Origin: a virus
Lineage: Duplodnaviria; Heunggongvirae; Uroviricota; Caudoviricetes
Virus record (IMG/VR): IMGVR_UViG_2695420523_000016
Reading direction: 5' to 3' (one strand)
Length of the DNA stretch: 11,425 nt
This document shows positions 6,754-7,370 of the stretch, one piece after another. The notes under the pieces are model-generated. The model did no database searches. It saw only the letters and a list, made by a program, of their open reading frames with translations, and was not told where the DNA came from. Each line of letters begins with the position of its first letter. The first letter of the stretch is position 1. A program made the translations under genes and the position numbers.

Positions 6754-6788
6754 AGTCCTCCTGATAAATAAGTCAGGAGGACTTTTTT
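6754..6788 (+). terminator. Intrinsic-terminator-like hairpin (11-bp stem, 8-nt loop, T6 tail) whose 3' arm contains the terS Shine-Dalgarno
   Basis: 6754-6764 agtcctcctga pairs with 6773-6783 tcaggaggact, followed by T6 at 6783-6788. AGGAGG at 6775-6780 lies 8 nt upstream of the terS ATG at 6789. Confidence 0.5.
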
Positions 6789-7370
6789 ATGCCTAAAACA
6801 AGAACAAATAAAACCAACCTGTCAATTTCGTATAGCGAGTTATCACGCCGCTATGGTTATGACGTTTCCGTTATTAGTCGTGAGTGGGTGAACAGGGGAT
6901 TAGACTGTACTAAAACAGAACCAGAAATCTACGAATGGATACGTGAGAATGTCCTAGCTCCATTACGTAATACGGATACGAAAGAACAAATAGAACAAGA
7001 AAGATTAAAGAAGTTAAAAGCAGAAGCGGCATTAGCTGAACTTGAACTTGACGAAAAGAATGGTGAAGTAATCAGTACTGCATACATTGAACAAGTACTG
7101 ACTGAGTATCTCTTTCAGGTAAAAACGGCAATGAGGGCAATCCCTTCTAAAACATATCTTGAACTATTTGCACAAACGGATGCAAAAGACCTGCGTGATT
7201 TACTGAAAACTGAGATAGACAAAACATTATATCAATTAGGTTCAATGGAATTTGAACTACCCACGGATGAAGAAATATTAGAGTATGGAAACGAACAAGA
7301 TAAAGCTTACGAGGATATTACAGAAAGTACTACCGACAATACAACCGCCGAAAATCCAGAGAACGAGTGA
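6789..7370 (+). CDS. terS: Phage terminase small subunit (lambda Nu1-like)
   Basis: 193-aa ORF. N-terminal HTH-like [29 protein letters not shown], then [10 protein letters not shown] and a coiled-coil, and an acidic C-terminus; this parallels the lambda Nu1 layout as I recall it. It sits immediately upstream of the large-subunit gene. Confidence 0.7.

What the first reader, a model, noticed from the sequence alone, without database searches (positions are those of the whole stretch)
6754..6791. A terminator-like hairpin immediately upstream of terS sequesters its Shine-Dalgarno
An 11-bp perfect stem (agtcctcctga / tcaggaggact) plus a T6 tail ends one nucleotide before the terS ATG, and the 3' arm is the AGGAGG SD. 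The structure could terminate upstream transcription, as at a lambdoid late-operon terminator needing antitermination, and could also occlude the ribosome-binding site, coupling translation to read-through or unfolding.
Basis: partly seen in the sequence, partly recalled or inferred. Interest (0 to 1): 0.45.

Follow-up and report, generated by a model that had tools for sequence, protein, structure and literature searches.

The report
Terminator hairpin locking the terS ribosome site
A very stable, conserved RNA hairpin with a T-run sits directly in front of a prophage's small-terminase gene and buries its ribosome-binding site; it most likely stops and silences stray transcription coming from upstream cargo genes, which is a known type of control seen here in a new place.

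Summary
Window 6754-6783 forms an 11-bp perfect stem (12 bp with a U.G pair) at about -21 kcal/mol (z = -5.4). The T-run 6783-6788 abuts the terS ATG at 6789, and AGGAGG (6775-6780) lies in the 3' arm. The hairpin is kept in relatives with TerS at least 77% identical. Three sequence variants exist, every cell is paired, and there is one compensatory G-C to A-U change plus G.U changes that favour a plus-strand RNA. About 30 more distant TerS loci lack it.

The nearest upstream gene is divergent. Further upstream lie a serine recombinase and defence-type cargo, not a late operon. The DNA just upstream of the hairpin looks like a cos/packaging region.

Opening the SD costs about 18 kcal/mol in any transcript that carries the 5' arm, so antitermination alone could not give TerS. 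The best reading is an insulating intrinsic terminator plus a translational lock against read-through from the cargo genes. The productive terS mRNA probably starts inside the hairpin. The loop motif GATAAATA is conserved upstream of terS across the family (9 of 15 clusters) and resembles T4-type late promoters, echoing T4 genes e, soc, 49 and I-TevI. The promoter step is inferred, not shown. This is a new member of a known kind, of moderate interest.

The parts
6754..6764 (+). 5' arm of the hairpin (AGTCCTCCTGA); contains the anti-SD CCUCCU at 6757-6762
   Evidence: Changes in relatives are C-to-U opposite G, giving G.U pairs, plus one compensatory pair.
6763..6770 (+). GATAAATA motif spanning the top of the stem and the loop (loop proper 6765-6772); a family-wide conserved NATAAATA element; candidate -10-like promoter element (inferred)
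   Evidence: ATAAATA lies 24-46 nt upstream of the terS ATG in 9 of 15 independent upstream clusters, against a shuffle mean of 0.9 and a maximum of 5 in 2000. The motif is not enriched in the window overall. T4-type late promoters are TATAAATA / NATAAATA (PMC3014915, PMC2984593).
6773..6783 (+). 3' arm (TCAGGAGGACT) containing the terS Shine-Dalgarno AGGAGG at 6775-6780
   Evidence: TCAGGAGG is invariant in all hairpin-bearing relatives. Opening it costs about 18 kcal/mol.
6783..6788 (+). T6 run (U-tract) immediately after the stem, abutting the start codon
   Evidence: It is T6-T7 in all three hairpin variants, whereas relatives without the hairpin have an A-rich spacer instead.
6789..7370 (+). 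terS (193 aa), Nu1-like small terminase; first gene of the co-directional structural block
   Evidence: phrog_57; PF07471-bearing homologues; weak similarity to lambda Nu1; downstream layout.
6666..6753 (+). Conserved non-coding block upstream of the hairpin: AGGTACTCC (6666-6674), CGCGAGTTTTCGGCACCG (6692-6709), TATGTGA (6724-6730), ACACAAAACATA (6743-6754). Probably the cos/packaging-recognition region, possibly with promoter elements.
   Evidence: Conserved in hairpin-clade relatives and, for the core motifs, in distant relatives. CGCGAGTTTTCGG matches lambda 13-25 (CGCGGGTTTTCGC), just right of cosN. Viral contig L047 begins 8 nt before the core. The function is inferred from position only.
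6220..6579 (-). Divergently oriented, variable accessory gene (119 aa, phrog_13663, unknown function) immediately upstream
   Evidence: Relatives carry a different minus-strand gene at this position.
2559..4079 (+). Plus-strand cargo pointing towards terS: an HNH Type IV-like nuclease (2559-3287) and a methyl-directed restriction enzyme type II-like gene (3288-4079). A likely source of lysogenic read-through transcription.
   Evidence: PADLOC mREase_II E = 3.4e-61 and mREase_IV E = 1e-7; Pfam HNH.
7285..9193 (+). terL (gpA-type), split by a 1-nt insertion near 7803-7806; a pseudogene in this lineage, intact in relatives that keep the hairpin

Best explanation
The element acts as a plus-strand RNA structure. 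It is an intrinsic terminator placed at the boundary between the prophage's lysogeny-expressed cargo region and its packaging/structural operon, and its 3' arm is the terS Shine-Dalgarno sequence. Transcripts entering from upstream either end at the U-tract, right at the start codon, or, if they read through, carry a 12-bp helix that makes terS untranslatable. This double lock keeps terminase, which would cut the resident cos site, from being made in the lysogen. The productive late terS mRNA must lack the 5' arm. It most likely starts inside the hairpin, at about 6775-6778, from a promoter whose -10-like element is the conserved GATAAATA in the loop. That is the logic known for T4 genes e, soc, 49 and I-TevI.

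Shown: the structure, its stability, its conservation with pairing-preserving changes, SD occlusion, and the genomic context. Inferred: actual termination, the direction and source of read-through, and the internal promoter (sub-claim probability about 0.35).
For: - Canonical terminator anatomy and stability.
- Pairing is kept in all three sequence variants. 100% of cells are paired, against 35-59% in the slid controls, with one G-C to A-U double change and three one-sided changes to or from G.U.
- The most diverged variant keeps -16.5 kcal/mol after 7 changes (random-mutation P = 0.007, or 0.03 for transitions only). In the variants the plus-strand RNA is 3-4 kcal/mol more stable than the minus strand.
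- The hairpin and the T-run appear together, only in the subclade with TerS at least 77% identical. About 30 other TerS loci have free AAGGA-type SDs and A-rich spacers.
- Relatives with an intact TerL keep the hairpin.
- Opening the SD costs about 18 kcal/mol in any transcript with the 5' arm, but 3-5 kcal/mol if the transcript starts at or after 6763.
- Upstream are plus-strand restriction-type cargo genes with no convincing plus-strand terminator between them and terS. Beyond them lies a serine recombinase. Downstream is a long plus-strand structural operon.
- The loop motif ATAAATA is conserved family-wide upstream of terS.
- The T4 precedent is documented (PMC3014915). NATAAATA is a late-promoter form (PMC2984593).
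- A near-identical cassette precedes a nuclease-like gene in T4-type contigs.
Against: - There is no transcript evidence of any kind.
- Only three independent hairpin variants exist, so the covariation support is thin.
- The nearest upstream gene is divergent. Read-through would have to come from genes ending at least 600 nt upstream and run antisense through that gene.
- GATAAATA is a poor sigma-70 -10 element (no T at -7). The candidate -35 elements are weak (TGTACA-N17-GATAAA; GTGACA-N18-CATAGT). No gp55-like factor is known for this phage type.
- A start near 6776 would leave the SD at the very 5' end of the mRNA.
- The generic 'anti-SD / ATAAATA / SD' design shows no orientation preference across viral contigs (12 versus 19). 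The conserved ATAAATA could equally be a packaging (cosB/IHF-type) element.
Confidence: 0.5

Rival explanations
1. First reader's model. The hairpin is a promoter-proximal or late-operon terminator that a Q-like antiterminator overrides, and terS translation is coupled to read-through or unfolding.
For: The terminator anatomy is canonical. The module is lambda-like: Nu1-like TerS, gpA-type TerL and a lambda-family portal. A strongly conserved non-coding block upstream could hold a promoter plus a factor-loading site.
Against: There is no late operon upstream; the upstream gene is divergent and beyond it lie cargo and a recombinase. No Q-like protein is recognised in the window. Antitermination does not free the SD: the helix re-forms behind the polymerase and costs about 18 kcal/mol to open. 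No alternative pairing partner exists. The 10-codon leader ORF (6739-6771) that could unfold the stem is absent in the L021 and L093 types.
Confidence: 0.12
2. DNA-level palindrome. The 11-bp inverted repeat is a binding site for a dimeric protein, either TerS itself (a cosB-type site, like the inverted R2/R1 pair just upstream of lambda nu1) or a late-gene regulator or repressor. On this view the RNA hairpin is incidental.
For: It lies between a cos-like core and terS, where lambda has the inverted R2/R1 repeat followed by a T-run. A perfect palindrome with an 8-bp spacer suits a dimer. Flanking DNA such as ACACAAAACATA is invariant, as expected of protein-binding DNA.
Against: The TerS helix-turn-helix region is nearly invariant across the whole family, but the arms exist only in one subclade. 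No third copy of the arm motif is present. All asymmetric changes are G.U-compatible on the plus strand and weaken the minus strand or the DNA symmetry. The T-run co-occurs with the stem. A near-identical cassette occurs in T4-type phages in a non-packaging context.
Confidence: 0.15
3. Translational attenuator only. The hairpin belongs to the normal terS leader and simply keeps TerS synthesis very low, or makes it conditional on temperature, a helicase or a trans-acting factor. The T-run is just the SD-to-AUG spacer.
For: SD occlusion is the most secure property. An AGGAGG SD with 8-nt spacing is otherwise optimal, as if compensating for the structure. An A/U-rich spacer is common.
Against: At -21 kcal/mol the helix is far beyond the range of tunable attenuators and would give essentially no translation. 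Relatives without the hairpin have A-rich, not T-rich, spacers, so the T-run arrived together with the stem. No partner for an alternative fold exists.
Confidence: 0.13
4. No function: a fortuitous palindrome fixed in a decaying prophage.
For: The window's own element has a frameshifted terL, and identical copies in hundreds of assemblies may simply be clonal.
Against: Relatives with an intact TerL and 77-82% TerS identity keep the structure through 2-7 substitutions. z = -5.4.
Confidence: 0.05

Closest known systems
T4 RBS-sequestering hairpins with internal late promoters (genes e, soc, 49, I-TevI; also mobE of phage Aeh1)
   Same: The SD is buried in a helix on long, upstream-initiated transcripts. 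A TATAAATA-like motif lies within or next to the 5' part of the structure, so transcripts starting there would lack the 5' strand. The protected gene product, a nuclease or lysis function, is harmful if made early (PMC3014915). A nearly identical cassette occurs in T4-type contigs L307 and L308.
   Different: The host here is a temperate, lambda-like siphovirus prophage with no known gp55/gp33 system. The motif is GATAAATA, and whether it acts as a promoter is unproven. The hairpin here also has a full U-tract, so it is a canonical terminator. The gene is terS.
Rho-independent (intrinsic) terminators of E. coli, including insulators flanking prophage morons
   Same: A G+C-rich 11-12-bp stem, a 6-8-nt loop, a U6 tract and an A-rich stretch upstream.
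   Different: It is not placed just after a co-directional gene; it abuts the next gene's start codon and contains that gene's SD.
Lambda pR'/tR' with Q antitermination (and Q-like AlpA systems)
   Same: A terminator stands between regulatory DNA and the late structural genes in a phage with a lambda-like packaging module.
   Different: No Q gene, Q-binding element or pause element was identified. In lambda, tR' lies upstream of the lysis genes, far from nu1, and does not sequester a ribosome-binding site.
Lambda cosB (inverted R2/R1 Nu1-binding sites upstream of nu1)
   Same: An inverted repeat plus a T-run lies between a cosN-like core and the small-terminase gene.
   Different: The arms are unrelated in sequence and occur once only. 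They are clade-specific although the TerS DNA-binding region is conserved, and their variation follows RNA pairing rules.
Dual-function expression platforms of riboswitches and attenuators, where the terminator's 3' strand contains the SD
   Same: One helix serves both transcription termination and SD occlusion.
   Different: There is no aptamer, leader peptide or alternative antiterminator fold.

Membership tests
Intrinsic (Rho-independent) terminator | G+C-rich stem of about 5-14 bp with a 3-8-nt loop | tested here: met
   11-12 bp with 6 G-C pairs and a 6-8-nt loop; -21 kcal/mol.
Intrinsic (Rho-independent) terminator | U-rich tract immediately 3' of the stem | tested here: met
   T6 at 6783-6788; T6-T7 in all variants.
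Intrinsic (Rho-independent) terminator | Lies at the end of a co-directional transcription unit | tested here: inconclusive
   The nearest upstream gene is on the minus strand. The nearest plus-strand gene ends at 6153, and no strong plus-strand terminator lies in between.
Intrinsic (Rho-independent) terminator | RNA 3' ends / termination activity at the U-tract | not testable with these tools
   Needs Term-seq or in vitro transcription.
T4-type RBS-sequestering hairpin with internal late promoter | SD and/or AUG base-paired in transcripts initiated upstream | tested here: met
   The SD is 10/10 paired; about 18 kcal/mol to open.
T4-type RBS-sequestering hairpin with internal late promoter | Late-promoter motif (TATAAATA / NATAAATA) positioned so that its transcripts lack the 5' strand | tested here: inconclusive
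   GATAAATA at 6763-6770 is in the right position, and the motif is conserved family-wide. Promoter activity is unknown, and the generic design shows no orientation bias.
T4-type RBS-sequestering hairpin with internal late promoter | Phage encodes the gp55/gp33-type late transcription machinery | not tested
   No complete genome of the family is in hand. None of the window's proteins matched such a factor.
Lambda Q / tR'-type antitermination unit | Q-family antiterminator gene plus a late promoter with Q-binding and pause elements upstream of the terminator | tested here: not met
   No Q-like protein in the window. Only weak promoter-like sites are present, and they overlap the hairpin itself. 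Regions outside the window were not examined exhaustively.
Lambda-type cosB TerS-binding repeats | Several copies of a TerS recognition motif between cosN and terS, co-conserved with the TerS DNA-binding domain | tested here: not met
   The arm motif occurs only as this one inverted pair. It is absent from relatives whose TerS helix-turn-helix region is conserved.
Any curated RNA family (Rfam 15) | Match at or above the gathering score | tested here: not met
   The best hit scores 30.4 bits against a gathering score of 60.

The most novel reading that the evidence does not exclude
A family of temperate, lambda-like enterobacterial prophages drives its packaging operon from a T4-late-type promoter (NATAAATA). 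In one subclade this promoter has been enclosed in the loop of a terminator/SD-lock hairpin. This would imply either an unrecognised gp55-like late transcription factor in temperate siphoviruses, or a prophage operon that is switched on by the late machinery of a superinfecting T4-type phage. The near-identical cassette in T4-type contigs would then reflect exchange of a small regulatory module between virulent and temperate phages.
Probability: 0.1. Interest if true: 0.75.

Novelty: new member of a known kind. Interest (0 to 1): 0.35.

Why it matters
Terminase made in a lysogen would cut the resident cos site, so prophages need tight insulation between constitutively expressed cargo (here restriction-type defence genes) and the packaging operon. 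This element would be a compact solution: one 35-nt hairpin that stops polymerase, silences any read-through RNA and possibly houses the late promoter. If confirmed, it extends the T4 'early transcripts are locked, late transcripts are open' logic to temperate phages and to terS. It would also give a simple sequence signature for cargo/late-operon boundaries. The conserved NATAAATA motif additionally offers a handle on the unknown late regulation of an uncultured but widespread Enterobacteriaceae prophage family.

Tried and rejected
- **Leader-peptide unfolding.** The 10-codon ORF 6739-6771 ([10 protein letters not shown], stop in the loop) could melt the stem, but its ATG is absent in the L021 and L093 types. 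Rejected.
- **Antiterminator alternative fold.** No other sequence complementary to either arm exists in 6560-6830. Rejected.
- **Known RNA family.** Rfam gave only sub-threshold hits.
- **cf-PICI satellite.** The gene order differs from proteobacterial cf-PICIs (bioRxiv 10.1101/2022.09.08.507074). Rejected.
- **Dispersed repeat or mobile terminator in E. coli.** The segment occurs in only 1 of 5,426 complete genomes, in the same context. Rejected.
- **Flank-anchored pattern scans** of the metagenome and viral collections. The pattern was too loose, hits were mostly chance, and no new hairpin variants emerged.
- **Generic 'CCTCCT..ATAAATA..AGGAGG' design as a directional class.** The orientation test was neutral, 12 versus 19. 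The near-identity with the T4-type cassettes may therefore be convergence, and horizontal transfer is not demonstrated.
- **Cultured phage relatives.** Neither the DNA nor the TerS protein has a match in the GenBank phage set.
- **Literature.** Searches for a described terminator/SD element at terS found nothing.
- **Lysis cassette upstream.** The genes at 4671-6153 are an EAL-like remnant, a lipoprotein-like ORF and a membrane protein, with no endolysin.

Full report
**1. Observation**

Window 6754-6791 reads AGTCCTCCTGA TAAATAAG TCAGGAGGACT TTTTT ATG. The arms 6754-6764 and 6773-6783 form 11 perfect pairs, and a 12th U6765.G6772 pair is possible. AGGAGG occupies 6775-6780, 8 nt before the ATG at 6789. 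The T-run 6783-6788 abuts the ATG. As RNA the region folds at -21.2 kcal/mol, against -7.6 +/- 2.5 for shuffles (z = -5.4). It is the outstanding terminator-like site in the window: 12 pairs, while all other scan hits have 5-8. It is also the only long G+C-containing perfect inverted repeat.

**2. Context**

- The downstream ORF is a small terminase (phrog_57). Its homologues often carry Pfam Phage_Nu1, and it is weakly similar to lambda Nu1.
- After it come a gpA-type TerL, a head-tail joining protein and a lambda-family portal. Beyond the window lie protease-capsid, connectors, a fibre, the major tail protein and the tape measure, all on the plus strand.
- The element is an Enterobacteriaceae prophage. 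The identical TerS is indexed in 312 blocks of the assembly collection, mostly E. coli. It is integrated next to yeaG/yeaH and has a 644-aa serine recombinase at its left end.
- About 10 kb of small genes lie between the recombinase and terS. They include a methyl-directed restriction enzyme type II-like gene (E = 3e-61) and an HNH Type IV-like nuclease on the plus strand.
- The gene immediately upstream of terS (6220-6579) is on the minus strand. In every relative a different minus-strand gene sits at that position.
- terS is therefore the first gene of the structural block and faces a cargo region, not a late operon.
- No cultured phage in the GenBank set matches the DNA or the TerS protein. 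The gene order is not that of proteobacterial cf-PICIs.

**3. The DNA just upstream**

A block of about 120 bp (6666-6788) is conserved among close relatives. In E. coli G3/10, homology to the window begins only at about 6691. The core motifs are AGGTWCTCY, about 17 nt, CGCG(A/T)AG(A)TTTCGRC and TATATGTGA. These persist in distant TerS relatives, and one viral contig starts 8 nt before the core. CGCGAGTTTTCGG (6692-6704) resembles lambda 13-25, immediately right of cosN. This is probably the cos/packaging-recognition region, inferred from position only.

**4. Conservation of the hairpin**

- Nine distinct upstream haplotypes carry three hairpin variants:
  - AGTCCTCCTGAT/AAATAA/GTCAGGAGGACT
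  - AGTCCTTCTGAT/AAATAG/ATCAGGAGGACT
  - AAGCCTCTTGATA/AATA/TATCAGGAGGTTT
- All cells are paired (100%, against 35-59% when partners are slid). There is one compensatory G-C to A-U pair, two C-G to U.G changes and one U.G to U-A change.
- The most diverged variant keeps -16.5 kcal/mol after 7 changes. Random mutation reaches this with P = 0.007, or 0.03 for transitions only. In both variants the plus-strand RNA is 3-4 kcal/mol more stable than the minus strand. This favours selection on a plus-strand RNA, but only three independent variants exist.
- Relatives with intact TerL (587-630 aa) keep the hairpin.
- Across about 40 TerS loci, only the subclade with at least 77% identity has the hairpin and the T-run. 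This subclade also has a TerS N-terminus about 10 residues longer. All the others fold at -1 to -7 kcal/mol and have an unpaired AAGGA-type SD and an A-rich spacer. The stem and the U-tract thus arrived together.

**5. Consequences for expression**

In any transcript that includes the 5' arm, opening the SD costs about 18 kcal/mol. In transcripts beginning at or after 6763 it costs 3-5 kcal/mol. Neither arm has an alternative partner, no Rfam family fits, and the only leader ORF is not conserved. Read-through, with or without antitermination, therefore cannot by itself yield TerS. The productive mRNA should lack the 5' arm.

**6. The loop motif**

- The loop region reads GATAAATA (6763-6770). 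ATAAATA lies 24-46 nt upstream of the terS ATG in 9 of 15 independent upstream-sequence clusters. Composition shuffles give a mean of 0.9 and a maximum of 5 in 2000; the background is 1.3% per window of 54 positions. In the window as a whole the motif is not enriched. The loop is therefore an older, family-wide element around which the stem was built.
- It matches the T4-type late-promoter motif TATAAATA / NATAAATA (PMC3014915; PMC2984593).
- In T4 genes e, soc, 49 and I-TevI, long early transcripts bury the RBS. [quoted passage not shown]
- A pattern search found an almost identical cassette, AAGCCTCCTGATAAATAAGTCAGGAGGCTTTTTTTATG, in two T4-type contigs that carry UvsX and a gp41-like helicase. 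There it sits between co-directional genes, ahead of a 299-aa gene that by eye contains a D...EVK nuclease-like motif.
- Caveats:
  - GATAAATA is a poor sigma-70 -10 element, and the candidate -35 elements are weak (and reading of the sequence).
  - No gp55-like factor is known for this phage type.
  - The generic anti-SD/ATAAATA/SD design shows no orientation bias in viral contigs (12 versus 19).
  - The sequence identity with the T4-type cassettes may therefore be convergence.
  - The motif could instead be a packaging element.

**7. Verdict**

- Best model (0.5): an insulating intrinsic terminator plus an SD lock, acting on transcripts that enter from the cargo side and protecting the lysogen from terminase. 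Productive transcripts probably start inside the hairpin (sub-claim about 0.35).
- Rivals:
  - A DNA palindrome for TerS or a regulator (0.15). This is weakened because the TerS helix-turn-helix is family-invariant while the arms are clade-specific.
  - A pure translational attenuator (0.13).
  - No function (0.05).
- The element is a new member of a known kind of control, found at an unusual and biologically sensible place.

Noticed in passing
window 7285-9193 (insertion near 7803-7806): terL is split by a single extra T in the VLLDE (Walker-B-like) region, relative to three intact relatives. The same split appears in other assemblies of this lineage, so the widespread E. coli copy is probably packaging-defective.
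   Followed up: partly
window 2559-4079: An adjacent HNH nuclease (Type IV methyl-directed REase-like, E = 1e-7) and a 263-aa protein matching PADLOC mREase_II (E = 3e-61) form a likely prophage-borne anti-phage defence pair. The ORF 1616-2326 (minus strand) has a weak Csm6-like hit (E = 3e-4).
   Followed up: partly
window 6666-6730: There is a deeply conserved non-coding core: AGGTACTCC, about 17 variable nt, CGCGAGTTTTCGGCACCG, then TATGTGA. It is shared with TerS relatives down to about 55% identity and resembles lambda DNA just right of cosN, so it is a candidate cos site. The 17-nt segment between the conserved flanks varies between relatives.
   Followed up: partly
L307 3870-3911 and L308 2085-2125 (minus strand): T4-type viral contigs carry a near-identical terminator/SD cassette, with the same 24-nt core including the loop, in front of a 299-302-aa gene with a nuclease-like motif. 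This is either convergence or exchange of a small regulatory module. L352 has the same design with a different sequence (TATAAATA in the loop, then a T-run, then ATG).
   Followed up: partly
window 6697-6706 and 6790-6799: RNAalifold pairs GUUUUCGGCA in the cos-like core with UGCCUAAAAC at the terS start codon (9 pairs). The pairing is only partly kept in the L093/L094 types, so it is possibly chance.
   Followed up: no
window 4126-4175: A 15-nt inverted repeat (93% complementary, 20-nt spacer) lies between the convergent genes 3288-4079 (+) and 4179-4490 (-). It is probably a bidirectional terminator.
   Followed up: no
window 4671-5514: The 169-aa ORF has a weak match to the C-terminal part of an EAL-type c-di-GMP phosphodiesterase (NCBIfam E = 2e-6), so it looks like an EAL-like remnant. 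The overlapping 119-aa ORF has a lipoprotein-like signal (LLTCCGS).
   Followed up: no
L104 3744-5678; L006 (E. coli G3/10): The element is bounded on the left by a 644-aa large serine recombinase next to yeaG/yeaH. In strain G3/10 a related, IS-disrupted remnant sits in ybhA with different cargo (Hcp, RipA, DUF3800) but the same cos-hairpin-terS junction. The cargo slot upstream of the junction is therefore highly variable.
   Followed up: partly
window 11170-11241; L001 10398-12194: The portal C-terminus differs by one residue in length from other copies. The protease-capsid fusion gene is split in some assemblies (L001) but intact (596-598 aa) in others, which is a further sign of decay in some copies.
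   Followed up: no
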